Sequence record: PZ445443.1
DNA length: 64,000 bases
Direction: 5' to 3' (one strand)
Source of the DNA: a phage
How positions within the stretch are numbered: position 1 is the stretch's first letter; each line of letters starts with the position of its first letter. The notes below the pieces were generated by a model. It ran no database searches, was not told the origin of the DNA, and saw only the letters and a program-made list of their open reading frames with translations. A program made the position numbers and the translations under genes. Below are positions 16,207 to 61,555 of the stretch, piece after piece.

Positions 16207-18665
16207 CTGCTCTTCCCCTACCATAAACGGCCATACATGGCAAGTGGAATAATTGACGAGCCATCAATCCCACACACTGTACAAATATACATGTAAAATA
16301 ACTATTGCATAACTTTTCATTGTGTGGTAGCAGGGCCATTTTTACACGTTTTTCCTTCCAAAATTGCACGTAATGCAGCATTTGCACAAAATTTAACCTG
16401 ATGCATATCTTCAATAGCTTGTCAACAACTAAAAATCTTTATAAGTCATACACTTACATAACTACAAAAGCGTTTTCTACGTGAAAAATCGAGTATAACT
16501 ATAGCCGCCAGACCTCAGAATTTACGTACGCTCGACATTCTATAGCCTGCTAAGCATTTATTCCAACCATAGAATAACGGAATAGTCAATACCTGCATAA
16601 AATAATTATTCGTGTAAACTGCATAACATAAATCGGCCCAGGTGTCAACATTTTTCGTAAACAGTCCGAAATTATCACTATGAGTTATCATAAACAGGGA
16701 AATCTTTAGTCGTCTAATGTTTACTGTACATTACTATACTGACTGGAATCATTAGATGACTAAGAGAAAGATAAGAAATAATTAACAATACAATTATTTT
16801 ATCTGTAACAATAAGGCAACTATGCAAACGAATGGCATGGCGCGACGGAGTCGCGACATAATATAAAAGCAGTAACCATCACCCCCGTGATAGTTTGTCT
16901 GCAAACTATTAATCAGATCATAGTTGCCTTGTATTTAGTTAATCATGACATAACAAGCAAGGCAACTATAGATCTGCTAATAGTTGCCCTGCTTTTATAT
17001 TATGTCATAGAAACACCCGAAGGGGTGACCAAAGGTCACCTGGCATGGCCAGTGAAAGATTATTAACTTGCTAATAGTTATCATGCAAACGAATGGCATG
17101 GCTGATTATCGGTGTGTAAACAGTCAATCATGTAAATGGTTAGCATGTGAACAATCAGGAATGTAAACAATCCAGTGTGTAAACTAATAGGTGTGTAAAA
17201 GTGTCATGTTGTGTCAGTTAGGTCACATTATGTCATATTGTGTCAGACAAGTTTTTCTCCTCTTTGTCAAGTGCTGCATGAAAAATTTACAATCTGGTAT
17301 GGTAGCATTTTTGCGGCCCTGTTTACATTCAGGGGTGTATGTATAATCCTTGTTGTGTGGGCGTTTAGACGTCTGGACGGTCAGAAGTCTGCAGGTTAAT
17401 ATCTAATCTATTGGCTGCTAACTATATCCCACACAAATAGTAAGAAATATGATTGTTATATGCGTAAACTGTAACTCATGTTATCAATCCCTGTATGTAT
17501 CGCCAGTGGTGCGCATAATGGGTATTATGTTAAATTGCCCGTAATGATAAAGGTTCTCACAATGATAGGTATTCTCATTCACCCCCACAAAATAGATTGC
17601 AAATGTTGTGCCACTGTGTGAACGGCCTAGCCTATTAATTTGCCTCACTGCCTCGATATTTGAGAATTGTTATAAGAATGAGAAGTATTCCCATTTCGTC
17701 CGCCTGGCAGCACTCCTGTAGGTCAGGTCAAAATCGTGGTAGAACTGGACCTGTTCAGATATTTCTGGCTGACTCTTCAGGTCTGTGTGGGAAAAGCCAA
17801 CCTCTCCGGCGGGGCAGGGGATAGGTCAATTAAAAAATTTACGTGGTGTATGAAGCGCTCTTCAGGTAAGGCAGGTATTATGGGATGAAACCCTCTTCAG
17901 GCAATGATATTTGTGGGTGTGATATTTGCTGGAAAGCCAGATATGACGGGACTCCCGGCGGGGCAGGGGTGGTACAGACAGGGAAAATATGAAGGATGTG
18001 GTTGGGTAGATTGATCAGACAGGTAGAGTATGGAATATGTTACAAGTATGTTAAATATGGAGGTTGAATATCTGTAGGATTTGTGTGTAAAATCAAAGAC
18101 TTAAGTGGTGTTGTGGTATTTTCTATAAATAATTCAAGTTTAATAGGTGATATTTGTCTCTATCCGCTTTGTGTGGTAAACAGATTCAGATGAGATTGGT
18201 TTACAAGTGTATACATAATATACAAATTAAAGATACAAGAAACCCCCCTCCCCCTTCGGCTACCATTCACCTTTTCCTCTGACTGGTACTTAAACACTTA
18301 TTCAGACTCTTCAGGTTATCACCTATATATCATATGGCAGTGACTGGTGTCCTCCGGCCCCTCTTTCGTCACCCGTCCGCTTCGCCATGCTAATGCCATA
18401 GCCAATGGTTCGGTTGTTCACCCTGTTCACTCAGGTGTATCTCCATACCCCTTCAAACCGAAGAGAACAGAAAACCCGAATTACTCGGTAAAAGAAAAGA
18501 GAAGAACTTAATTTTATCAGGATAGGCAAGAATGTCAAGGCATGACTGCTCACTAAACAAGCAAACAGTCATGTGTGGGAGGTAAGTGATTGTGGTGGTA
18601 GGAAATTTAGTTGAAAGATGTGTTATAGGTGCTTCCAGCACTTTAGCCGGGCAGCTAATTGTGTG
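16207..18665. other. 2.5 kb ORF-free repeat-dense region between convergent gene blocks (candidate origin, packaging/injection-control region or ncRNA locus)
   Basis: No credible ORF with RBS; 20-bp direct repeat ATGCAAACGAATGGCATGGC (16822, 17083); TAGTTGCC iteron-like motifs; palindromes CGCGACGGAGTCGCG and GGTGACCaaaGGTCACC; GTGTGTAAAC run about 17120-17200; CTC(C/T)CGGCGGGGCAGGGG twice (17802, 17952); CTCTTCAGG 5-6 times. Confidence 0.6.
18511..18539 (-). promoter_or_regulatory. sigma70-like promoter on minus strand (TTGACA-17-TAAAAT) firing into the ORF-free region
   Basis: Reverse complement of 18534-18539 is TTGACA, of 18511-18516 is TAAAAT, spacer 17 bp; no CDS downstream. Confidence 0.45.
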
Positions 18666-18881
18666 TCAGTCCAGCGGTTCATCCTCTACTTCACTGAAAT
18701 CAATGTTCATGGTCTCCTCCCAACCATCGATCTCAGCACAAGAGTGGAGTTCTTTAGGGTTTACTCCCAAAGCCTCAGCAACAGAGTCTATATTTAACAC
18801 CTCTGGCAGGTATGATTCATCAAATTCAAGGTAAATCAGGCCACGAGTGTTGTCAGCCCCACCAAATATTTCTATCTTCAT
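18666..18881 (-). CDS. small acidic protein (MKIEI-start family)
   Basis: 71 aa ORF, acidic C-terminus. Confidence 0.5.
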   Translation of the reverse strand: MKIEIFGGADNTRGLIYLEFDESYLPEVLNIDSVAEALGVNPKELHSCAEIDGWEETMNIDFSEVEDEPLD

Positions 18882-19002
18882 GAAATCTCCTCTGGAAATG
18901 AGAGTGTGAACAGGGTTTTATGCGTTCCAATACGCTGGAATTATACACGTTTGCCTCTTCAGGCCATGCTTTAGCATGAGGAACCTGTGTGGGCTCGGTG
19001 CT

Positions 19003-19416
19003 TCATAGTCTACCACCTCTGAACTCTTCGTGCTCAGGCATAATAGAGAACCAGATATCTACGATGTCTCCCCACGTTAGGTCATCAGCCTCAGGATCTA
19101 CCTGGAGCGAAGATGGAGAATCTTCAGAATCGAAGTTTTCCTCTTTCACTGGCTCAGCCAAGGGACATATAGCCACTCCTTTGGATGTCTCTTCAGATGC
19201 ATGTGTGTTTATCATGTTCCACCCGTGAGTATTCCGGCAACAGCCACTATGGACGTAATGATCATCAGAATCACCACCAAAACCTCTGACAATGTTTTCA
19301 TTGTGTATCCCATATTCTCCAAACGATGTGTGGATACTATCACTGGAGCGACAATGTGTCAACAGAAACGCCGCGAGGGTTTGGTTAAAATCCGAGCGTA
19401 TGGTGATTTGGGTCAA
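19003..19416 (-). CDS. hypothetical acidic protein (start uncertain)
   Basis: Track start is TTG; a shorter ATG-initiated version is possible. Confidence 0.4.
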   Translation of the reverse strand: MTQITIRSDFNQTLAAFLLTHCRSSDSIHTSFGEYGIHNENIVRGFGGDSDDHYVHSGCCRNTHGWNMINTHASEETSKGVAICPLAEPVKEENFDSEDSPSSLQVDPEADDLTWGDIVDIWFSIMPEHEEFRGGRL

Positions 19417-19575
19417 AACGGACGTGCGTTCTCGCTACGCTCGAAATATAGAGTTGTTTGCAGGAAGCTCTTAAACGCTCTGTAATGAGATTAACTACCC
19501 AAGGTATGCAATCGTGCACCAGATAAAGAAAAGGACGCCACAGAGCGTCCTAGGTGTCTTAAATTTGATATTTTG

Positions 19576-19887
19576 CTATACCCACGAGGGCTTATCAAGA
19601 TTGGAGTAGCTGAAAGGTGTCAAAAGGTGACTGTCAAAATCTCTCAAACTATCCAAATCTTTTTCCTCGTCCTGACACCATCTGTGCCTACATTTATTGT
19701 TGTAGTGCATGGAATGCATAGCGTTCTGCAACTTAACAGGCACAAGTGATTCAGGAGTAGATAGTATTGTAGGGTATGCCAGAACCACCTCAAACAGTGG
19801 AAACACATCGAAACTAAAGTCTACCTCTGCAGAGGTTGATGGCATATAGGAGTATTTAGCCGCCTTTGTAGACATAATCCACCTCAC
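19576..19887 (-). CDS. hypothetical protein
   Basis: 103 aa ORF. Confidence 0.45.
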   Translation of the reverse strand: MRWIMSTKAAKYSYMPSTSAEVDFSFDVFPLFEVVLAYPTILSTPESLVPVKLQNAMHSMHYNNKCRHRWCQDEEKDLDSLRDFDSHLLTPFSYSNLDKPSWV

Positions 19888-20210
19888 ACAGGTTTGATAA
19901 TACCTTCACCGAATAACTCTTCATATCTAATCTTATCCGGATCCCACTCCTGGATAATTTCGAAGACAATATCCAACCCAGGAATAATCACTTCTCCAGT
20001 GTCAAGTTTGGCAAGAACAAAACCAGAAGGCTGAATGGTTTCCCAGTTGCGACGATTGGAATAGAAGACCTCGAAAATATCACCGACCTTGATCTGTTGA
20101 TCAAGATGTTCAAGATTCTCTTTCATATAGACGCAGCGGATTTTTCGTGCAGGCCATAGACCACCTGCATCACGTTCATTTAGCTCTTTCACAGTGATTG
20201 GCATTCTCAT
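19884..20210 (-). CDS. hypothetical protein
   Basis: Trimmed from 20261 to ATG (MRMPITV) with AAAAGGAA RBS; longer form would read through upstream terminator hairpin. Confidence 0.5.
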   Translation of the reverse strand: MRMPITVKELNERDAGGLWPARKIRCVYMKENLEHLDQQIKVGDIFEVFYSNRRNWETIQPSGFVLAKLDTGEVIIPGLDIVFEIIQEWDPDKIRYEELFGEGIIKPV

Positions 20211-52059: not shown

Positions 52060-53325
52060 TTATTCCAGCACCTCCCAAGTTTCTGGATTAAGATTGCGGA
52101 ATGCGATACCCACAGGGAATTGAGGCACACCGTCCACCGTACGCTGTTGGAATTTTATCGTGATAAATTTGCCAACATATGAGCAGCATTTTTCGTAGTT
52201 CCTTACGGCAAAAGTGCCTTTCATTTTGCATTTGCATTGTGTCCCATCTTTCTCTTCGCAGATAAGAACACCTTCTCCGTTTTTATCTTTTTCAACACCG
52301 ATCACTTTTGCTTCAACATCGGTGAACAGTTTCCACTTGAGCAGATCAGTAGAGCGTTGACCGTATTCGTAGGTGCCACGGAAGTTACGAATAATAGATC
52401 CTTCATAACCTTCCTGCATGTACTGTCCGATGGAGTTGCGAACCTCTTCCTCGTTGTAGGCGATCTTGAAAGGAACACCCTCGACGTTGGTGAGATGGTT
52501 AACTTCACAATAATCAATAACTTCCTGAAGATTTGTGGCCCGATCTTCCCAGCGATGGATGCAATCAGGAACATCGAACACCATCAGTTTCAGGTCATAA
52601 GAGCAGTAACCTCCATACCGATCAGAATCACGGACAGGTTCTTCATAAACCGGATGATCAACCTTGTTGAAGTCTTTCCAGGTCTCCTCTCCGGCCTTGA
52701 TCGCTTTCTCACGGCGTTTTATGTCTGCCATGAAGTCCTTATCAATTTCTTTCTCAATGTCTTCCAGACTACGCCATTTCTTAACGAGGGAGGTTATTTT
52801 CTGCAACGGTAGACCGTGAATGTAGAACTCTCCATCAAATTCATCAAAGCCTGTTTCTTCATGCAGGTCTTGTAGCTCACGGAGGATGTTACCTTTCGGC
52901 TCATACACTTTGTTACCGCGAGAGATGAATTTAGGTACACCGTCTACGAATTTGACAAAGCAACGGTTCCCGTCAAGTTTGTGTTGCAGGTGGCATGGAT
53001 ACACAATAGCGTGTGGTTTTTTCGAAGCATCTTGCGCCAGCATAGGTGAAATGTCAATGGCCTCAAGGTCTTCGACATTTTCTTTGTAACCCAGCCGGAC
53101 TTGCTTTTCCCATTTAGACTGCGCCTCTAAAACAGCTTGTTCTTCTGCTGTAGTTTCGTTGGATCGCCCGATGTTTTTGGCTTCACATTTTGTGGTTTTT
53201 GATTGTACAGCGCCACCAACCCTGCCGAACACAACAATAACCTCGTTGCCGCTTGTATCGACTTTCCACATCTGGATGGACCCGTCTTTATTGCGAGCAT
53301 AAAGTGTTGTTTTGAATTGATGCAT
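52060..53325 (-). CDS. ATP-dependent DNA ligase
   Basis: Adenylation motif KLDGNRC (KxDG); 421 aa. Confidence 0.75.
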   Translation of the reverse strand: MHQFKTTLYARNKDGSIQMWKVDTSGNEVIVVFGRVGGAVQSKTTKCEAKNIGRSNETTAEEQAVLEAQSKWEKQVRLGYKENVEDLEAIDISPMLAQDASKKPHAIVYPCHLQHKLDGNRCFVKFVDGVPKFISRGNKVYEPKGNILRELQDLHEETGFDEFDGEFYIHGLPLQKITSLVKKWRSLEDIEKEIDKDFMADIKRREKAIKAGEETWKDFNKVDHPVYEEPVRDSDRYGGYCSYDLKLMVFDVPDCIHRWEDRATNLQEVIDYCEVNHLTNVEGVPFKIAYNEEEVRNSIGQYMQEGYEGSIIRNFRGTYEYGQRSTDLLKWKLFTDVEAKVIGVEKDKNGEGVLICEEKDGTQCKCKMKGTFAVRNYEKCCSYVGKFITIKFQQRTVDGVPQFPVGIAFRNLNPETWEVLE

Positions 53326-53594
53326 TACTCTACCTCTTCCTTAAAAATTTTAAACATCTCTTCTTTACTCATTACCAACCAGTCACCCATAAAATCAACA
53401 AGCCAATCACCCTGGTACAAGACTAGGTTACCAAACGGCTCTACAAGCTCACACATACGACGAAGATCTCTGGTCCGAACAGGTGACGATGTAAACACAC
53501 CTGTATCAATCCACCGTTGCAGATCAGATACTGATGAAGAGCTTCCGTCAAACTGGTGTGCTTCTACAGGTTTAGCAAGATTAAATAACGGCAT
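53325..53594 (-). CDS. hypothetical protein
   Basis: 89 aa ORF. Confidence 0.45.
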   Translation of the reverse strand: MPLFNLAKPVEAHQFDGSSSSVSDLQRWIDTGVFTSSPVRTRDLRRMCELVEPFGNLVLYQGDWLVDFMGDWLVMSKEEMFKIFKEEVE

Positions 53595-53889
53595 TGCAGT
53601 CCTCCTTATCTAATAGGTCTTTTATCGGGTAAACAAGCAGGTGTGGATCGTAATAATTTATAGTTTTATTCTGCCACACTATGAACTTAATTACAACTAA
53701 ATTTACCACATCTTTATCTCCATGCAGTCCAACACACAGATTTGTCCATATTTTGTGGTTGAATACTTTGCTGTCGATGTAGATCTTAGTGTCAAACTTA
53801 TCCTCTATCCTACCTATAAGTTTAACCAATTCTTTCATCTGATCTCCAAACACAGCATCGTTTTCAAGATCTCTGGAGTGCTTGTACAT
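53581..53889 (-). CDS. hypothetical protein
   Basis: 102 aa ORF. Confidence 0.45.
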   Translation of the reverse strand: MYKHSRDLENDAVFGDQMKELVKLIGRIEDKFDTKIYIDSKVFNHKIWTNLCVGLHGDKDVVNLVVIKFIVWQNKTINYYDPHLLVYPIKDLLDKEDCNAVI

Positions 53890-53952
53890 AACTTTCTACC
53901 TCACTTGCATACTTTCCGAAACAAGTAAAGCCGGGTAATCCCGGCTATGTTG

Positions 53953-54666
53953 TTAAATATACTCTGTTACATCCTTGAAGCTCGAAGGCTTCATGATCTT
54001 ACCTTTACTGTCAAGGAATATGATAACTTTATTACCGTTGTAGAATTCTTCCTTAGCAACAAAACCTTCATATCGACCATCAAAGCGTCGCTCAAGATCT
54101 TTAATCTCCAACTCGATGAGTTGTTCAGCAGGCATATCTGCACTGGCACCGTGTGAATACCGTAGATGATTTACCCGTGCAAACTTGCTGTCATTCGATT
54201 TGAGAACCTTACGCATCATCCCGCACACATCTCCGCGAAGCTGGAACAGCAAAGCTGTTGACAACTCTGCTAAGCGGTAAGCGGATGCTCTTTGCTTAGA
54301 GGTGTTTTTCGCAGCGATCAGTGTATCATAGAACTCACCGATCTTGAACTTAAGATCATGCGGATTATCAAACAGGTCTGACCACATTTTGTGATTATCA
54401 TTAACAAGATAAGCGGCATAACTTGTGACAACGTGAAGATCGCAGGCCTCTTTTAGCAGGTGATCTCCGCCATCACCTTTCTCCAGCTCTTCCAAAACTT
54501 CATTGAACTCTTCCTCAATGAAGCTAAGCTGTAATTCGAACGGTGTGTATGATTTTTTCACTTTAGCTGCCACACGGTTCCAGTTTTCCACCCAGTTGGC
54601 AGACCAAAGGTAGTTTTCAGGCTGGGACAGTTTTTCAAGGTTGTCAATTAATTTAGTATTCAGCAT
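53953..54666 (-). CDS. hypothetical protein (possible MazG-like pyrophosphohydrolase segment)
   Basis: EEEFNEVLEEL...LKEACDL weakly resembles the MazG EExxE motif. Confidence 0.45.
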   Translation of the reverse strand: MLNTKLIDNLEKLSQPENYLWSANWVENWNRVAAKVKKSYTPFELQLSFIEEEFNEVLEELEKGDGGDHLLKEACDLHVVTSYAAYLVNDNHKMWSDLFDNPHDLKFKIGEFYDTLIAAKNTSKQRASAYRLAELSTALLFQLRGDVCGMMRKVLKSNDSKFARVNHLRYSHGASADMPAEQLIELEIKDLERRFDGRYEGFVAKEEFYNGNKVIIFLDSKGKIMKPSSFKDVTEYI

Positions 54667-54679
54667 TAAAGGTCTCCTT

Positions 54680-55441
54680 TTAAAGTTCCATAAAGTTTTC
54701 TACGGTCTCAATGAATGTTTTATCAGAGAAAGCGTCAACCGCCCCGTTAAACCAAACCGGGATGCCGCGATCCTCGTACTGGTAAATATCACTACGTGAA
54801 ATGCCATTCTCCTCTAGATGCTGTGAGTCGTATTTGTTAACGATCAGCAGTTTGGTGCCCTTATTGCAGGCAGGGAATAGCTCCCAGTTAAAATTGATAA
54901 CTGTGTTGGAACACCCTACAAGGATAACCATATCATTGCTTGTAAGAGAAGTCAACAGGTCATACATGTCTGTATACTTCGGAGCTACTTCTCCGAAGAA
55001 CACCACATTAGGTTTAACCCAGGTATACTTTCCTGCATCTACCTCAGAGTATCCAATGTCCTTAATGACGTCACTTCCTTCATCGTCCTCATAGACTATT
55101 TCTGGCAAATACCCGTGAACATGTAAAATATCTTCATGTTTTACACCAGCACGCTCCAGCAAATCATCTACATTGGTGGTAAGGTTGATCACACGACCAG
55201 ACCAGCGGGAATACCACTCAGCGATCCGAAGATGTGCAAGGTTAGGCTCAACACCGCCTAGAGCTACACGACGTGCATTGTAAAAGTCATGCACCTTGTA
55301 GTAGTTCTTGGCAAAGGTGTGGATGTTGCACACCTCATCGATGCTGAAATTCTCCCACATTGCAGTGCTACCAGATCGGAAAGTGGGAATACCAGATTCA
55401 GCGCTCAAACCAGCACCGGAGATAATAATCAGTCGTCGCAT
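54680..55441 (-). CDS. Sir2-family NAD-dependent deacylase/ADP-ribosyltransferase-like protein
   Basis: N-terminal NAD-binding motif GAGLSAESGIPTFRSG. Confidence 0.75.
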   Translation of the reverse strand: MRRLIIISGAGLSAESGIPTFRSGSTAMWENFSIDEVCNIHTFAKNYYKVHDFYNARRVALGGVEPNLAHLRIAEWYSRWSGRVINLTTNVDDLLERAGVKHEDILHVHGYLPEIVYEDDEGSDVIKDIGYSEVDAGKYTWVKPNVVFFGEVAPKYTDMYDLLTSLTSNDMVILVGCSNTVINFNWELFPACNKGTKLLIVNKYDSQHLEENGISRSDIYQYEDRGIPVWFNGAVDAFSDKTFIETVENFMEL

Positions 55442-55449
55442 AAGTGTCC

Positions 55450-55800
55450 TCAGTAGATGTTTTGTTTAATCTCTATTCCAAACTTTTTAAACGAGTCAGC
55501 TGCAAGCATGAATTTACGAGCCGCTGATGGGTTAGAAGTATGCACGAAAATCTTCACGTTGTCAACTACAGGGGGCTTACCAAATACAAATTTTTCCTCC
55601 AACATAGATAGGCAATCGTACCCTTCGAACACCTCTCCAAGGTCGTTGTCCATGTGCCACTCAGAAACGCGTCTGTAGAGCTTTCCCCTATCGTTAATAA
55701 AATCTATAAACTCGGAGGAATTCTTTAGCCAAATAGCGTCTGGGAGCCCATAATTTGACGGATCTCTCAAGTCATCCAGCCACACAATCAACTTCTTCAT
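55450..55800 (-). CDS. hypothetical protein adjacent to Sir2
   Basis: 116 aa; 9 bp from Sir2 start. Confidence 0.5.
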   Translation of the reverse strand: MKKLIVWLDDLRDPSNYGLPDAIWLKNSSEFIDFINDRGKLYRRVSEWHMDNDLGEVFEGYDCLSMLEEKFVFGKPPVVDNVKIFVHTSNPSAARKFMLAADSFKKFGIEIKQNIY

Positions 55801-56732
55801 TGCATATAGTTCTCGTTGTGGAAATAGTAATCAAGTATCTCACGGCGTTCCTGCTCCAGGAGGCAGTTCCACACATCTTCTGTGTAATTGTTACGAATGA
55901 AGTTTACCATGCCGTAAAACTCTTCGTCAACACGTTTAAAGATATCATCATCCCAAATCTTCCAAGCTTTACCCCTCATTACGGCCTTCCGTGCCAGGTA
56001 GTATGGAGACTTGATCTTCAGCCGCAGGTCATAAGGGTAGTAAGGCTTACGGATCATATACCCTTCGCCCCTTGTTTCTGCGGCTAATTCTTTTGCATAG
56101 CTGAACGGGATTTCACGCACAGTGTGAGGACGTTTTGCACCAAGGTATTTGGCAATCCCATCTAAAGCTGCTTCTGGTAGCATTATTCCAGAATCATTAT
56201 ATCTGCAACCTATCAAATATGCGCCATGGTCTTCTTGAACAATATGCGGATCTGAAGGGTGACAAATTTCAAACATGAATGTCATGTTTTCATTGCCCAT
56301 AACCTTCTTGATAAGATCTAAATTACCACATTGCTCTTGGATGGTTTCCTTTGCAAGGTTACAATATGGAGAATCAAGAGACCCGGTTGTTGAGAACAAT
56401 AGGTCACCTTTATGAGATGATACCACACCAAGGAATCCGTTCTTTTTCTCTACCGCAGTCACAAGCTTATTGTCAGGCAGGTTGGTGGAGTTTTCTCCCA
56501 AGTTAAACACTTTTGTGAAGGGCCATGCCACAACATTTCCTTCATTACCTACAACAATGCCTCGGCACTCCAGTAAACGAGGGGACAAATGCCATAAATT
56601 GTTGTAAAATACTTTTCTAGCATATTTATAGATCTTTAACCCGAGATCTGGGTAATACCTACTGGTTACAAGACCTTTGTCAACTAGGTCGTCTGCATTA
56701 AAATACTTCATTATACGTTCCTCATTTGTCAT
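55797..56732 (-). CDS. Rnl1-like RNA ligase
   Basis: Nucleotidyltransferase motifs: I EKKNGF, IV GEGYMIRK, V LRLKIKSPYY. Confidence 0.55.
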   Translation of the reverse strand: MTNEERIMKYFNADDLVDKGLVTSRYYPDLGLKIYKYARKVFYNNLWHLSPRLLECRGIVVGNEGNVVAWPFTKVFNLGENSTNLPDNKLVTAVEKKNGFLGVVSSHKGDLLFSTTGSLDSPYCNLAKETIQEQCGNLDLIKKVMGNENMTFMFEICHPSDPHIVQEDHGAYLIGCRYNDSGIMLPEAALDGIAKYLGAKRPHTVREIPFSYAKELAAETRGEGYMIRKPYYPYDLRLKIKSPYYLARKAVMRGKAWKIWDDDIFKRVDEEFYGMVNFIRNNYTEDVWNCLLEQERREILDYYFHNENYMQ

Positions 56733-56832
56733 TTTGTCAGTCTATCCTGCCACACAAATAACCTAGTGTCAACACTTGAAATTAACAAAACAGTCAGGTA
56801 TACTACCGTTGAAATTAAAACGGAGGGTCACT

Positions 56833-57243
56833 ATGTCTAAAATGCTATATATCGTGCGTGGTCTACCAGGGTCTGGCAAATCAACACTGGCAAATGCGCT
56901 ATCTTTAGAGGGTCTGTATCCACATTTTGAGAACGACATGTTCTGGTATGACGATGACGGCAATTACAACTGGGATGCAAGTAAAGTAACACTCGCAGCA
57001 AAATGGTGCAAAGATAACGTAGAAGATATGATGCGTATGGGATACGACCGTATCGTGGTAAGTAATACGTTTACAAAAGAAAAACATGTGCAGGAATATG
57101 TTGACATGGCAATCAGTCATGGGTATAGTTATACCGTGATCGTGGTTGAAAACCGCCACGGTAATAAAAGCATTCATGATGTTCCAGACAAGGTTGTGGA
57201 TCGTATGGAACGCCAGCTTAAAAACTGCATTAAACTTAAATGA
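56833..57243 (+). CDS. P-loop polynucleotide 5'-kinase-like protein
   Basis: Track start 56776 trimmed to ATG 56833 with GGAGGG RBS; Walker A GLPGSGKST. Confidence 0.5.
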   Translation: MSKMLYIVRGLPGSGKSTLANALSLEGLYPHFENDMFWYDDDGNYNWDASKVTLAAKWCKDNVEDMMRMGYDRIVVSNTFTKEKHVQEYVDMAISHGYSYTVIVVENRHGNKSIHDVPDKVVDRMERQLKNCIKLK

Positions 57244-57250
57244 GGAATGT

Positions 57251-57805
57251 ATGAAATACTTTGTAACAAGCGACACACACTTTCTCCACCAGCGGGTCAT
57301 GGAGTTTGATTCATGTCAAAAACACAGATCTCAGTATGATCACAATCTTGACAGTATGAATGCGGGAATCATCGCCAAGTGGAACTCTGTTGTGTCACCT
57401 GCAGACACTGTGTTCCACTTGGGAGATATTGCGTGCACCAATGATAAGAATATCAACAACTTACTTCCAGATATTCTAAATATGTTGAACGGACATATTA
57501 TTCTTGTTCGTGGCAACCATGACACAAGGACGACTGTCAGAATTATGAAAGAGTTCGGTCATGAGGTTGTAGATTATTACGAGCTTCGCCACAACAAGAA
57601 TTTGATCTGTATGAGCCATTACCAGTTTGCAAAGTGGAACAGAAAGCCTCACGGATCAGTCCAACTGTTCGGTCATGCTCACGGAACCACACAACAGTTG
57701 TTTGGCAGGCAGCTTGATGTCGGTTGGGATGTGTGGGGGAGACTCTTACCATTAGAAGAGGCATACCGTATTGCAATGAGTTTTGATATTGACAGCAGGG
57801 AGTAA
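57251..57805 (+). CDS. calcineurin-like metallophosphoesterase
   Basis: Track start trimmed to ATG 57251; motifs DTHF, GDIA, GNHD. Confidence 0.65.
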   Translation: MKYFVTSDTHFLHQRVMEFDSCQKHRSQYDHNLDSMNAGIIAKWNSVVSPADTVFHLGDIACTNDKNINNLLPDILNMLNGHIILVRGNHDTRTTVRIMKEFGHEVVDYYELRHNKNLICMSHYQFAKWNRKPHGSVQLFGHAHGTTQQLFGRQLDVGWDVWGRLLPLEEAYRIAMSFDIDSRE

Positions 57806-60742: not shown

Positions 60743-60817
60743 GCCCTGTTAGCTTAGTGGATAAAGCAGCGGCCTTCTAAGCCGTTGACACTGGTTCGAG
60801 TCCAGTACGGGGTGCCA
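60743..60817 (+). tRNA. tRNA-Arg (anticodon TCT), CCA encoded
   Basis: Hand-folded cloverleaf: 7-bp acceptor stem (two G-U), anticodon loop CTTCTAA, T-loop TTCGAGT. Confidence 0.7.
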
Positions 60818-60821
60818 AATT

Positions 60822-60908
60822 GGGGAGTTATCCCGTAGAGGTAGCGGTGTAGACTGTAAATCTATTGTCATTGCGACTCGGGTGGTTCGACTCCACCACT
60901 CCCCACCA
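60822..60908 (+). tRNA. tRNA-Tyr (anticodon GTA), long variable arm, CCA encoded
   Basis: Perfect 7-bp acceptor stem GGGGAGT/ACTCCCC; anticodon loop CTGTAAA; T-loop TTCGACT; 87 nt. Confidence 0.7.
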
Positions 60909-61022
60909 AATTTATATTTTTAGATGCATAAATAATACAGATAATGGCATTGATATTTATCGTCGTTTATACTAGTCACTAACTGCTCGAAAATCAGTGT
61001 CATTATCAGTATAATTTATAAA

Positions 61023-61113
61023 GGAGGGTAGGGAGCAATGGTGCTCAAGCGGTCTTGAAAACCGTCCCGTTGAGGATGACTCGATGATGGTTCGATTCCA
61101 TTACTCTCCGCCA
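61023..61113 (+). tRNA. tRNA-Ser (anticodon TGA), long variable arm, CCA encoded
   Basis: Acceptor GGAGGGT/ACTCTCC; anticodon loop CTTGAAA; T-loop TTCGATT; 91 nt. Confidence 0.65.
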
Positions 61114-61211
61114 CATTGTTGACCTTGTAATTAAGCGAAAGTCGGAAGCAGAACCGGATTATCAAATGTTACAGTCGTCATCGCCGACTAGCAACATGGT
61201 CAACATACTGA

Positions 61212-61308
61212 GCTAGGTAAGCCCTTTGGCAAGGGCGAGGATTTTTAATCCTGAAAATAGACGAGGTAGTCGTTGAATACATAGGTGGTTCGATTCCATC
61301 ACCTAGCA
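61212..61308 (+). tRNA. atypical tRNA-like gene (possible UUU anticodon, oversized variable region, no encoded CCA)
   Basis: Perfect acceptor stem GCTAGGT/ACCTAGC and T-arm GGTGG-TTCGATT-CCATC; anticodon arm non-canonical (AGGA-TTTTTAA-TCCT); 29 nt between anticodon and T stems; 97 nt. Confidence 0.4.
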
Positions 61309-61315
61309 CCTTTTT

Positions 61316-61391
61316 GCTGATGTAGCACAATCGGTAGTGCAATTGATTTGTAATCAATAGGTTGTAGGTTCAAGTCCTGCCATCAGCACCA
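61316..61391 (+). tRNA. tRNA-Thr (anticodon TGT), CCA encoded
   Basis: Perfect acceptor stem GCTGATG/CATCAGC; anticodon stem ATTGA/TCAAT with loop TTTGTAA; T-loop TTCAAGT. Confidence 0.75.
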
Positions 61392-61392
61392 A

Positions 61393-61467
61393 GGCCCTGT
61401 AGCTGGAAGGTTCAAGCAAGCGACTCATAATCGCCAGACGGTGGTTCAATTCCACCCAGGGCCACCA
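61393..61467 (+). tRNA. tRNA-Met or tRNA-Ile2 (anticodon CAT), CCA encoded
   Basis: Perfect acceptor stem GGCCCTG/CAGGGCC; anticodon loop CTCATAA; T-loop TTCAATT. Confidence 0.7.
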
Positions 61468-61478
61468 AATAGTAAATA

Positions 61479-61555
61479 CTCCGCGTAGCTCAGCTTGGTA
61501 GAGCGCCTGATTTGGGATCAGGAGGTCGAGTGTTCGAATCACTCCGTGGAGACCA
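61479..61555 (+). tRNA. tRNA-Pro (anticodon TGG), CCA encoded
   Basis: Acceptor CTCCGCG/CGTGGAG; anticodon stem CCTGA/TCAGG with loop TTTGGGA; T-loop TTCGAAT. Confidence 0.7.

What the first reader, a model, noticed from the sequence alone, without database searches (positions are those of the whole stretch)
54680..55800. Sir2-family protein coupled to a small neighbour of unknown function
The Sir2 NAD-binding motif is clear. Sir2 domains in prokaryotes frequently act as NADases, so a phage copy with a tightly linked 116-aa partner may alter NAD metabolism or protein acylation during infection rather than act as a classical deacetylase.
Basis: partly seen in the sequence, partly recalled or inferred. 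Interest (0 to 1): 0.5.

Follow-up and report, generated by a model that had tools for sequence, protein, structure and literature searches.

The report
Phage sirtuin–cREC RNA-repair gene pair
The two genes are real, but the "unknown" neighbour is a known cREC receiver-fold domain, and the pair sits in an RNA-repair gene cluster of an rV5-like E. coli phage that was described computationally in 2022 and has never been tested at the bench.

Summary
Both ORFs exist exactly as described. 54680..55441(-) encodes a 253-aa sirtuin. 55450..55800(-) encodes a 116-aa protein that is not an orphan: it is Pfam PF20274 cREC_REC, with a confidently predicted CheY-like receiver fold.

The window is about 99% identical to Vequintavirus (rV5-like) E. 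coli phages. The pair lies inside a tight minus-strand operon: T4 Rnl1-type RNA ligase, cREC, sirtuin, MazG-like pyrophosphatase. A polynucleotide kinase and a metallophosphoesterase are transcribed divergently.

The sirtuin is CobB/SIRT5-like. It keeps every NAD-binding and catalytic residue (H109, plus the Y54/R57 anion-binding pair) but has no zinc-binding cysteines. It matches no defence-type NADase Sir2 model.

All 12 viral contigs whose cREC is at least 42% identical also carry this sirtuin clade. It is adjacent or one gene away in 8 and about 31-33 kb away in 4. In T5-like phages the same clade pairs with a HAD "Swiss-army-knife" RNA-repair phosphatase instead.

Iyer et al. 2022 described exactly this neighbourhood for phage V5. 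They predicted a Tpt1/KptA-like removal of RNA 2'-phosphate by the sirtuin and cyclic-phosphate opening by cREC. I found no experimental test.

Verdict: a real feature, already known as a prediction, with open biochemistry.

The parts
54680..55441 (-). Sirtuin (253 aa). Class-III/CobB-like and zinc-cysteine-less. Catalytic H109, with the Y54/R57 pair.
55450..55800 (-). cREC (cyclic-phosphate-processing receiver domain), 116 aa. Conserved D9 D10 R12 P14 D51 D53 H87 S89 N90 P91 K96.
55797..56732 (-). T4 Rnl1-type RNA ligase and first gene of the operon. Its stop overlaps the cREC start (ATGA). A close relative annotates a start about 18 nt further in.
   Evidence: (RNA_lig_T4_1, 55.8 bits).
53953..54666 (-). 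MazG-superfamily-like all-alpha nucleotide pyrophosphohydrolase (237 aa) and last gene of the operon. AAGGAG lies ahead of its ATG.
   Evidence: phrog_671, 5.8e-22. (orthologues have weak or faint PRA-PH hits). EEFNE...EACD motif in the translation..
53929..53946 (-). Terminator-like GC hairpin followed by a T-rich tail, directly after the MazG-like stop codon. Probable end of the operon.
   Evidence: The number of terminator-like sites in the region is not above chance, so only the position is suggestive.
56733..56832 (.). 100-bp divergent intergenic region between the RNA ligase operon and the kinase/phosphoesterase genes. Presumed promoters.
   Evidence: Promoter-like matches are not above chance.
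56833..57243 (+). Polynucleotide 5'-kinase-like P-loop protein (136 aa, GLPGSGKST).
   Evidence: AAA_33, 41.8 bits; phrog_2071/505.
57251..57805 (+). Calcineurin-like metallophosphoesterase (184 aa) with DTH, GD, GNHD and GHAHG motifs.
52060..53325 (-). ATP-dependent DNA ligase. A conserved neighbour of the sirtuin, directly abutting it in PVP-SE1/Mydo-like phages. Whether it belongs to the module is uncertain.
53325..53889 (-). Two small conserved ORFs (102 aa and 89 aa) of unknown function that travel with the cluster.

Best explanation
The sirtuin and its 116-aa partner are two components of a phage RNA (probably tRNA) break-repair module. The module counters host ribonucleases that leave 2',3'-cyclic-phosphate and 5'-OH ends.

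Proposed route. All steps are inferred. None is shown by experiment.
1. The cREC protein, a receiver fold that keeps the acidic pocket but lacks helix 5 and the canonical lysine, opens the cyclic phosphate to a 2'-phosphate without metal.
2. The P-loop kinase phosphorylates the 5'-OH.
3. The Rnl1-type ligase seals the break.
4. The sirtuin uses NAD+ to take off the remaining 2'-phosphate. The phosphate oxygen attacks C1'' of NAD+ in place of an acyl-lysine oxygen. [quoted passage not shown] This is the same chemistry as Tpt1/KptA, carried out on an unrelated fold.
5. cREC, the metallophosphoesterase and the MazG-like pyrophosphatase then clear that by-product.

What is shown: the gene content, the intact active-site residues, the folds, the operon arrangement and the co-conservation.
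For: Gene content and arrangement:
- The junctions are translationally coupled: ATGA, an 8-nt gap with GAGGA, and a 13-nt gap with AAGGAG.
- A hairpin lies after the fourth gene.

Folds and residues:
- The conserved cREC residues sit at the ends of beta1, beta3 and beta4, the canonical receiver-domain phosphoryl site.
- The sirtuin keeps all NAD-binding and catalytic residues, plus the Y-x-x-R pair that binds anionic groups in SIRT5 and CobB.
- The sirtuin model has pLDDT 87, and its best fold matches are CobB and SIRT5.

Co-conservation:
- 12 of 12 IMG/VR contigs with a cREC at least 42% identical also carry this sirtuin clade.
- Rnl1, kinase, phosphoesterase, DNA ligase and MazG-like genes stay clustered through several rearrangements.
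- In the unrelated T5-like phages the same sirtuin clade (58% identity) sits two small ORFs from a HAD_SAK_2 RNA-repair phosphatase.

Other support:
- A seven-gene tRNA cluster, including tRNA-Lys(UUU), lies about 3 kb away.
- Iyer et al. 2022 (PMC9503650, sec. 3.7.3) and Iyer et al. 2021 (PMC7824862) made the same prediction independently.
Against: - There is no biochemical evidence for either protein.
- The sirtuin clade is acidic, with pI 4.7-5.8 and a net charge of about -15. That is unlike the basic Tpt1 enzymes.
- Its acyl-lysine-site motifs (FGE loop, catalytic His, Y/R) are those of a working deacylase.
- The kinase, metallophosphoesterase and Rnl1 could already heal and seal breaks the T4 way, which would make a 2'-phosphotransferase redundant.
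- In phi92/PHB05-like phages the sirtuin sits about 31-33 kb from the cluster.
- Some cREC clusters show no detectable Rnl1 or kinase (L008, L012, L155).
- T5-like phages show no RNA ligase next to the sirtuin.
- Neighbours of 31 distant cREC clusters are mostly unrelated genes, and the cellular or prophage contexts are uninformative.
- Most of the synteny evidence comes from related phages, so the observations are not independent.
Confidence: 0.45

Rival explanations
1. The sirtuin is a genuine CobB/SIRT5-type protein lysine deacylase (deacetylase or desuccinylase). It acts on host or phage proteins, for example by reactivating acylated ligases or other enzymes. cREC would be either an unrelated end-healing enzyme or a receiver-fold partner or substrate of the sirtuin.
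For: - The best sequence and fold matches are CobB and SIRT5.
- The top NCBIfam hits are NAD-dependent deacylase models.
- H109, the FGE loop and the Y54/R57 pair are all conserved.
- The acidic pI fits a protein-directed enzyme.
- The gene directly abuts an ATP-dependent DNA ligase in PVP-SE1-like phages.
- From prior knowledge: E. coli CobB deacetylates the receiver protein CheY.
Against: - All NCBIfam deacylase models score far below their cutoffs (122 bits against 243).
- No member has the four zinc-binding cysteines.
- The near-universal Q of TQN(I/V)D is an invariant T, and GTSLxVxP is replaced by GCSNxVINF.
- The clade associates independently with RNA-end-processing enzymes in Vequintavirinae and in T5-like phages.
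Confidence: 0.25
2. The pair processes small NAD+/ADP-ribose-derived molecules rather than RNA. Examples are immune second messengers or the breakdown products of host NADase defences. It would work with the phosphoesterase and the MazG-like enzyme, as a counter-defence or salvage route.
For: - Some cREC, phosphoesterase and MazG-like clusters lack a detectable RNA ligase (L008, L012, L155).
- In phi92-like phages the cREC cluster lies next to NAPRTase-family and PRPP-synthetase-like genes.
- Distant cRECs occasionally neighbour NADAR and NAD synthase genes.
- The literature lists cREC among the predicted ADPr-derivative processors.
Against: - A sirtuin consumes NAD+ rather than restoring it.
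- The rV5-type phage has no NAPRTase or PRPP-synthetase homologue.
- In the window the two genes are translationally coupled to an RNA ligase.
- The NADAR and NAD synthase neighbours were only 2 and 1 of 137 proteins.
Confidence: 0.17
3. One reading: the sirtuin is an NADase that depletes or reshapes the NAD+ pool during infection, and the 116-aa protein is its regulator.
For: The NAD-binding site is intact. A receiver fold could in principle act as a switch.
Against: - There is no significant similarity to any defence-type NADase Sir2 model. The best PADLOC hit has E = 0.011 over 34 residues.
- The protein is CobB-like.
- NAD+ depletion harms phage replication, and phages are known to rebuild NAD+ (PMC13464706).
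- The cREC model contains neither helix 5 nor the canonical lysine of signalling receivers.
- No histidine kinase is annotated anywhere in a 99%-identical genome.
Confidence: 0.04

Closest known systems
Phage sirtuin-centred RNA-repair neighbourhood, configuration 2 of Iyer, Burroughs, Anantharaman & Aravind 2022 (Viruses 14:1977; prototypes Escherichia phage V5 and Proteus phage Mydo)
   Same: The gene set is identical: T4-like RNA ligase, cREC, sirtuin, nucleotide kinase, MazG-superfamily pyrophosphatase and calcineurin-like phosphoesterase. The window is about 99% identical to rV5-like phages.
   Different: Nothing essential differs, because this is that system. Details added here:
- the operon junctions;
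- the zinc-cysteine-less, Q-to-T, Y/R-retaining character of the sirtuin clade, and its acidity;
- co-occurrence at genome level rather than strict adjacency.
Fungal/plant tRNA ligation pathway (Trl1 CPDase + kinase + ligase, then Tpt1, then a 2H phosphodiesterase acting on Appr>p)
   Same: The proposed logic is the same: open the cyclic phosphate to a 2'-PO4, phosphorylate the 5' end, seal with an Rnl1-family ligase, remove the 2'-PO4 with NAD+, then clear ADP-ribose>p (PMC6097658 and PMC6573784 describe the Tpt1 chemistry).
   Different: No Tpt1/KptA and no 2H domain is present. A sirtuin and a receiver-fold protein would be non-homologous replacements. None of this has been demonstrated.
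T4 Pnkp + Rnl1 tRNA-Lys repair against the PrrC anticodon nuclease
   Same: An Rnl1-family ligase together with a P-loop 5'-kinase in a lytic coliphage, with phage tRNA genes nearby.
   Different: The kinase has no fused HAD phosphatase. A separate metallophosphoesterase is present instead, as in bacterial Pnkp. The sirtuin, cREC and MazG-like genes have no T4 counterpart.
CobB / SIRT5 (class III sirtuins)
   Same: Same fold (TM 0.73). Same GAG, FR, N-x-D and HG motifs, FGE loop and Y-x-x-R pair.
   Different: About 27% identity. No Cys4 zinc site. Q-to-T change in the TQN(I/V)D motif. Altered motif after GxS. Scores below all NCBIfam equivalog cutoffs.
CheY-like response-regulator receiver domains
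   Different: - 9-22% identity.
- The protein ends after beta5, so it has no helix 5 and no beta5 lysine.
- It has its own invariant R12, H87 and N90-P91.
- No histidine kinase is annotated in the phage.
Defence-system Sir2 NADases (ThsA, DSR1/2, Sir2-HerA, pAgo-associated Sir2)
   Same: Only the Sir2 superfamily Rossmann fold and NAD+ binding.
   Different: No significant PADLOC match. Encoded by a phage rather than a host. A different clade.

Membership tests
Sirtuin (Pfam SIR2, PF02146) | Profile score above the gathering threshold | tested here: met
   95.3 bits against a cutoff of 24, covering 1-178 of 180 model positions.
Sirtuin (Pfam SIR2, PF02146) | NAD-binding GAGxS / (G)IPxFR motifs and catalytic His in the HG motif | tested here: met
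   G9-A10-G11, S16-G17, F21-R22 and H109-G110 are invariant in 24 homologues. They align to the same residues of CobB.
Sirtuin (Pfam SIR2, PF02146) | Cys4 zinc-binding module between the HG and FGE motifs | tested here: not met
   No cysteine lies in residues 111-142. The whole protein has three Cys (38, 177, 192), and no member of the clade has the CxxC...CxxC pattern.
Class III sirtuins (CobB/SIRT5) | Y-x-x-R pair that binds anionic acyl groups | tested here: met
   F53-Y54-N55-x-R57-R58 is conserved and aligns with FYNARR of CobB. The equivalence to SIRT5 Y102/R105 rests on prior knowledge.
CobB equivalog (NCBIfam NF040867, NF001753 and related models) | Score above the curated cutoff | tested here: not met
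   Best score is 122.4 bits against a cutoff of 243. The CobB model gives 102.7 against 320.
cREC (Pfam PF20274) | Profile score above the gathering threshold | tested here: met
   55.1 bits against a cutoff of 27. All full-length homologues carry PF20274; the only exception is a 63-aa fragment (P0054).
cREC (Pfam PF20274) | Receiver (CheY-like) fold with conserved aspartates at the phosphoryl site | tested here: met
cREC (Pfam PF20274) | No association with histidine kinases; instead found with RNA-repair or ADPr-processing genes | tested here: met
   No kinase is annotated in the 99%-identical genome MZ501111. The neighbours are Rnl1, PNK, a metallophosphoesterase and the sirtuin. For distant members the context was mostly uninformative.
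cREC (Pfam PF20274) | Cyclic-phosphodiesterase activity | not testable with these tools
   This is a prediction only (PMC7824862, PMC9503650). No experimental paper was found.
Tpt1/KptA RNA 2'-phosphotransferase | Homology to the Tpt1/KptA (ART-type) fold | tested here: not met
   The only Pfam hit is SIR2 and the fold matches are sirtuins. The protein is therefore not a member. 'Works like Tpt1' is an inference from context.
Tpt1/KptA RNA 2'-phosphotransferase | [quoted passage not shown] | not testable with these tools
   Needs an enzyme assay or yeast tpt1-delta complementation.
Phage healing-and-sealing RNA repair (T4 Pnkp/Rnl1 type) | Rnl1-family ligase, 5'-kinase and 3'-end phosphoesterase encoded together | tested here: met
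   RNA_lig_T4_1 at 55.8 bits, AAA_33 at 41.8 bits and Metallophos_2 at 28.5 bits, all above their cutoffs. The genes are adjacent and divergent.
Defence-type Sir2 NADases | Match to a PADLOC Sir2 model (ThsA, DSR, Sir2-HerA and others) | tested here: not met
   Only one spurious hit: E = 0.011, 13 bits, 34 residues.

The most novel reading that the evidence does not exclude
The phage sirtuin is the first sirtuin whose physiological substrate is a nucleic-acid phosphate. It would be a non-homologous functional analogue of Tpt1 that removes RNA 2'-phosphates using NAD+. Its partner would be a new class of metal-independent cyclic phosphodiesterase built on a truncated response-regulator receiver fold. 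Together with Rnl1 and the kinase, they would give a bacteriophage a yeast-type, 2'-phosphate-dependent tRNA repair route. The idea was published as a prediction in 2021-2022, so the novelty would lie in proving it.
Probability: 0.3. Interest if true: 0.75.

Novelty: already known. Interest (0 to 1): 0.35.

Why it matters
If the predicted chemistry is right, two very well-studied folds would gain new catalytic roles. The sirtuin would act as an RNA 2'-phosphotransferase, and the CheY-like receiver would act as a cyclic phosphodiesterase.

Common coliphages (rV5-like, PVP-SE1-like, phi92-like and T5-like) would then carry an NAD+-dependent answer to tRNA-cleaving host defences. These phages and their hosts are easy to manipulate genetically, so the question can be tested directly.

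As a genome-scan finding it adds nothing new. The gene pair and its context are already in the literature and in Pfam.

Tried and rejected
- **Defence-type NADase Sir2.** Rejected: no PADLOC match.
- **CobB orthologue.** Rejected as a membership claim: all scores fall below the NCBIfam cutoffs and there is no zinc site.
- **Solved relative of the 116-aa protein.** A sequence search of the PDB gave only chance hits with E of at least 0.1. The fold search was needed.
- **Solved relatives of the other cluster proteins.** Sequence searches of the PDB for the Rnl1, kinase and MazG-like proteins found nothing.
- **A wider cREC–sirtuin link.** I scanned 50 distant cREC loci (31 clusters, 137 neighbour proteins). 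The contexts were heterogeneous, with only HAD_SAK_2 x2, NADAR x2, NAD synthase and Band_7 reminiscent of RNA or NAD systems. Ten cellular-genome hits were uninformative.
- **Sirtuin neighbours elsewhere.** Neighbours of jumbo-phage and phi92-like sirtuins gave no useful Pfam hits, so I did not reproduce configuration 1 of the 2022 paper.
- **A divergent cREC in L101.** The 162-aa protein that occupies the cREC position in L101 was tested against the cREC profile. It is not one (hhalign probability 1%).
- **NAD salvage genes in this phage.** NAPRTase and PRPP-synthetase homologues were searched for in the window and in a full rV5-like genome. They are absent.
- **Promoter and terminator scans.** Site counts were not above chance.
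- **Literature.** Searches for experimental work on cREC or on phage sirtuins found nothing beyond the two comparative-genomics papers.
Full report
**Observation**

- The larger product hits Pfam SIR2 at 5.5e-27 and PHROG 2162 at 3e-109.
- The smaller product is not an orphan. It hits Pfam PF20274, 'cyclic-phosphate processing receiver domain' (cREC_REC), at 1.3e-14 (55 bits against a cutoff of 27). It also hits PHROG 1479, a family of unknown function, at 7.5e-35.
- The cREC stop codon is followed by 8 nt and then the sirtuin ATG, with a GAGGA Shine-Dalgarno sequence overlapping the stop.

**Where the window comes from**

A 4-kb stretch around the pair is 97-99% identical to more than 100 rV5-like E. 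coli phages (Vequintavirus), among them PMBT16, inoa, WalterGehring and rV5_ev146. In those records the sirtuin is annotated as an 'NAD-dependent deacetylase' and the 116-aa gene as 'hypothetical'.

**Anatomy of the locus**

Four genes are packed head to tail on the minus strand:
- A T4 Rnl1-type RNA ligase at 55797..56732 (Pfam RNA_lig_T4_1, 55.8 bits). Its stop overlaps the cREC start as ATGA.
- cREC.
- The sirtuin.
- After 13 nt containing AAGGAG, a 237-aa protein at 53953..54666.
  - It matches PHROG 671, 'nucleotide pyrophosphohydrolase', at 5.8e-22.
  - It carries an EExxE...ExxD motif.
  - Its orthologues give weak or faint PRA-PH hits. PRA-PH belongs to the all-alpha MazG-like superfamily.

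A GC-rich hairpin with a T-rich tail follows immediately at 53946..53929.

Two genes are transcribed divergently from a 100-bp spacer. The first is a P-loop polynucleotide-kinase-like protein at 56833..57243 (AAA_33). The second is a calcineurin-like metallophosphoesterase at 57251..57805.

Further downstream on the minus strand lie two small conserved ORFs and an ATP-dependent DNA ligase. A cluster of seven tRNA genes lies at 60743..61555.

**The sirtuin**

Family placement:
- Its best solved relatives by sequence are E. coli CobB (1S5P, 4e-21) and SIRT5.
- The AlphaFold model (pLDDT 87) also superposes best on CobB and SIRT5, with TM 0.73.

Conservation across 24 phage homologues of 50-61% identity:
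- These motifs are invariant: GAG (9-11), S16-G17, F21-R22, T89-N90-V91-D92, the catalytic H109-G110, K143-PNVVFFGE-151, G176-x-S178 and N202.
- The F53-Y54-N-x-R57-R58 segment is conserved. It aligns with FYNARR of CobB. From prior knowledge, this is the Y/R pair that binds anionic acyl groups in class III sirtuins.

Three departures define the whole clade:
- No member has the four zinc-binding cysteines.
- The near-universal Q of TQN(I/V)D is an invariant T.
- The GTSLxVxP motif is replaced by GCSNxVINF.

Other properties:
- All NCBIfam deacylase models score well below their cutoffs.
- No PADLOC defence-system Sir2 model gives a significant hit.
- The clade is acidic, with pI 4.7-5.8.

**The partner**

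Thirty homologues of 36-84% identity share the following residues:
- Invariant: R12, P14, D51, D53, H87, S89-N90-P91 and K96.
- At least 90% conserved: W7, D9, D10 and T88.

The conserved acidic residues sit at the C-terminal ends of beta1 and beta3, and H-T-S-N-P follows beta4. That is the canonical phosphoryl-site geometry. However, the protein ends right after beta5, so helix 5 and the canonical beta5 lysine are missing. No histidine kinase is annotated anywhere in a 99%-identical phage genome.

A profile search of 1.84 billion representatives finds 1,467 family members. Most are stand-alone proteins of 100-125 aa.

**Co-conservation**

From the cREC side, 62 IMG/VR loci were recovered. All 12 with at least 42% identity lie on contigs that also carry this sirtuin clade.
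- In the rV5 type the two genes are adjacent (L001).
- In the PVP-SE1/Mydo/4MG type the kinase gene sits between them, giving the order Rnl1, cREC, kinase, sirtuin, DNA ligase (L002-L007, L009).
- In the phi92/PHB05 type they are about 31-33 kb apart (L008, L010-L012 against L093-L096).
- None of the 50 more distant cREC loci had the sirtuin nearby. Their neighbours are heterogeneous. Among 137 proteins there were two HAD_SAK_2, two NADAR, one NAD synthase and one Band_7, and the rest were unrelated.

From the sirtuin side, 76 loci were recovered.
- 13 have a cREC on the same contig.
- Three 146-149-kb phages have phosphoesterase, Rnl1, kinase, sirtuin, DNA ligase and MazG-like genes without a cREC (L101, L111, L115). 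The 162-aa protein that occupies the cREC position in L101 is not a cREC.
- The largest group is T5-like phages. I take L065, at 121,750 bp, to be T5 itself. There the sirtuin (58% identity) follows NrdD and lies two small ORFs upstream of a HAD_SAK_2 'Swiss-army-knife' RNA-repair phosphatase at 4e-20.

The pair is therefore co-conserved within one broad group of related myoviruses, although strict adjacency is not required. The sirtuin clade has a second, independent association with an RNA-end-healing enzyme. Much of the synteny is inherited rather than independent, which limits its weight.

**Literature**

Two comparative-genomics papers from the Aravind group already cover this.
- PMC7824862 (2021) named the cREC domain. 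It predicted that cREC opens the 2',3'-cyclic ends of RNA or cyclic ADP-ribose derivatives.
- PMC9503650 (2022, sec. [quoted passage not shown]
- The same paper describes a T5-like variant with the Swiss-army-knife HAD.
- It proposes that the sirtuin acts like KptA/Tpt1 to remove 2'-phosphates, and that the accessory enzymes open cyclic phosphates or process ADPr>P.
- It states that cREC is experimentally uncharacterised.

My searches found no later experimental work. The 2026 NARP3 paper concerns host Sir2-HerA, not this protein.

**Mechanism**

The best-supported reading is the RNA-repair one.
1. Host or competitor ribonucleases leave 2',3'>p and 5'-OH ends.
2. cREC opens the cyclic phosphate.
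3. The kinase phosphorylates the 5' end.
4. Rnl1 seals the break.
5. The sirtuin removes the 2'-phosphate using NAD+.
6. The phosphoesterase, cREC and the MazG-like enzyme dispose of ADP-ribose>p.

The chemistry is plausible by analogy, which is an inference. In sirtuins an acyl oxygen attacks C1' of the nicotinamide ribose. The catalytic His then activates the 2'-OH to form a 1',2'-cyclic intermediate. Tpt1 does the same with a phosphate oxygen (PMC6097658, PMC6333775). The conserved Y54/R57 pair could hold an anionic phosphate.

Points against:
- The protein is acidic, and its deacylase-type substrate-site motifs are intact.
- The kinase, phosphoesterase and Rnl1 could already heal and seal breaks the T4 way, which makes the sirtuin redundant.
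- In phi92-like phages the sirtuin is far from the cluster.
- Some cREC clusters, and the T5-like phages, show no nearby RNA ligase.

My estimates are about 0.85 that the pair belongs to this RNA-repair/NAD-ADPr module and about 0.3-0.35 that the specific Tpt1-like and cyclic-phosphodiesterase chemistries are correct. I report 0.45 for the combined statement.

Rival explanations:
- A true CobB-like deacylase: 0.25.
- A small-molecule ADPr-processing or counter-defence role: about 0.17.

**Verdict**

The feature is real. It missed both the identity of the partner and the RNA-repair context.

The system is already described in the literature and in Pfam, so it is not novel as a finding. It remains an attractive, untested biochemical prediction.

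Noticed in passing
window 61212-61308 (+): A tRNA with anticodon loop UUUUUAA, i.e. tRNA-Lys(UUU), carries a roughly 26-nt insertion in the variable region (97 nt in total). ARAGORN could not assign it. Rfam tRNA scores it at only 35.5 bits. It is annotated tRNA-Lys in MZ501111. tRNA-Lys(UUU) is the classical PrrC target repaired by T4 Pnkp and Rnl1, so this odd phage copy may be linked to the neighbouring repair cluster.
   Followed up: partly
L153 2269-4967, L154 1642-4539, L155 1068-4165: In phi92/PHB05-like phages the cREC / phosphoesterase / Rnl1 / kinase cluster lies next to, and divergent from, a NAPRTase-family (NAMPT-like) gene and a PRPP-synthetase-like gene. This looks like an NAD+ salvage pair. 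Neither has a homologue in the window or in a complete rV5-like genome.
   Followed up: partly
L084 6001-8078 (also L086, L087, L089, L092, L120): In PVP-SE1/Mydo/4MG-like phages the sirtuin stop codon overlaps the start of the ATP-dependent DNA ligase gene. There the sirtuin is translationally coupled to a DNA ligase rather than to the MazG-like gene.
   Followed up: no
window 54680-55441 (residues 111-142 and T89): The whole phage sirtuin clade lacks the Cys4 zinc module. It also replaces the near-universal Q of the TQN(I/V)D motif with an invariant T. The clade is uniformly acidic, with pI 4.7-5.8. I did not find these features mentioned in the passages of the 2022 paper that I read.
   Followed up: partly
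proteins P0190, P0192, P0200, P0212, P0237, P0254, P0299, P0312: Very long proteins (760-3483 aa) match only positions of about 56-100 of the cREC profile, 6-12 times each. This could be a repeat family resembling the G-Y...LE helix region, or a low-complexity artefact.
   Followed up: no
L100 332-976; L021 5977-6702: Two cREC proteins are longer than usual. One has about 100 extra N-terminal residues (214 aa). The other has about 115 extra C-terminal residues (241 aa). Neither extension has a Pfam match, and I did not find the Nudix fusions reported in the literature in these two.
   Followed up: partly
one search hit list (e.g. MG065655 'Campylobacter phage C2', MG065635, MG065658): Eighteen to twenty-three records named 'Campylobacter phage', with host C. 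jejuni, match the query. The listed ones are 85-97% identical to E. coli rV5-like phages over this region. Host misassignment or contamination in those records is likely.
   Followed up: no
window ~18000-20000 and ~56000-57000: GC skew changes sign at about 18-20 kb and again at about 56-57 kb. The second switch coincides with the divergent intergenic region between the RNA ligase operon and the kinase gene, so it marks transcription-unit polarity.
   Followed up: no
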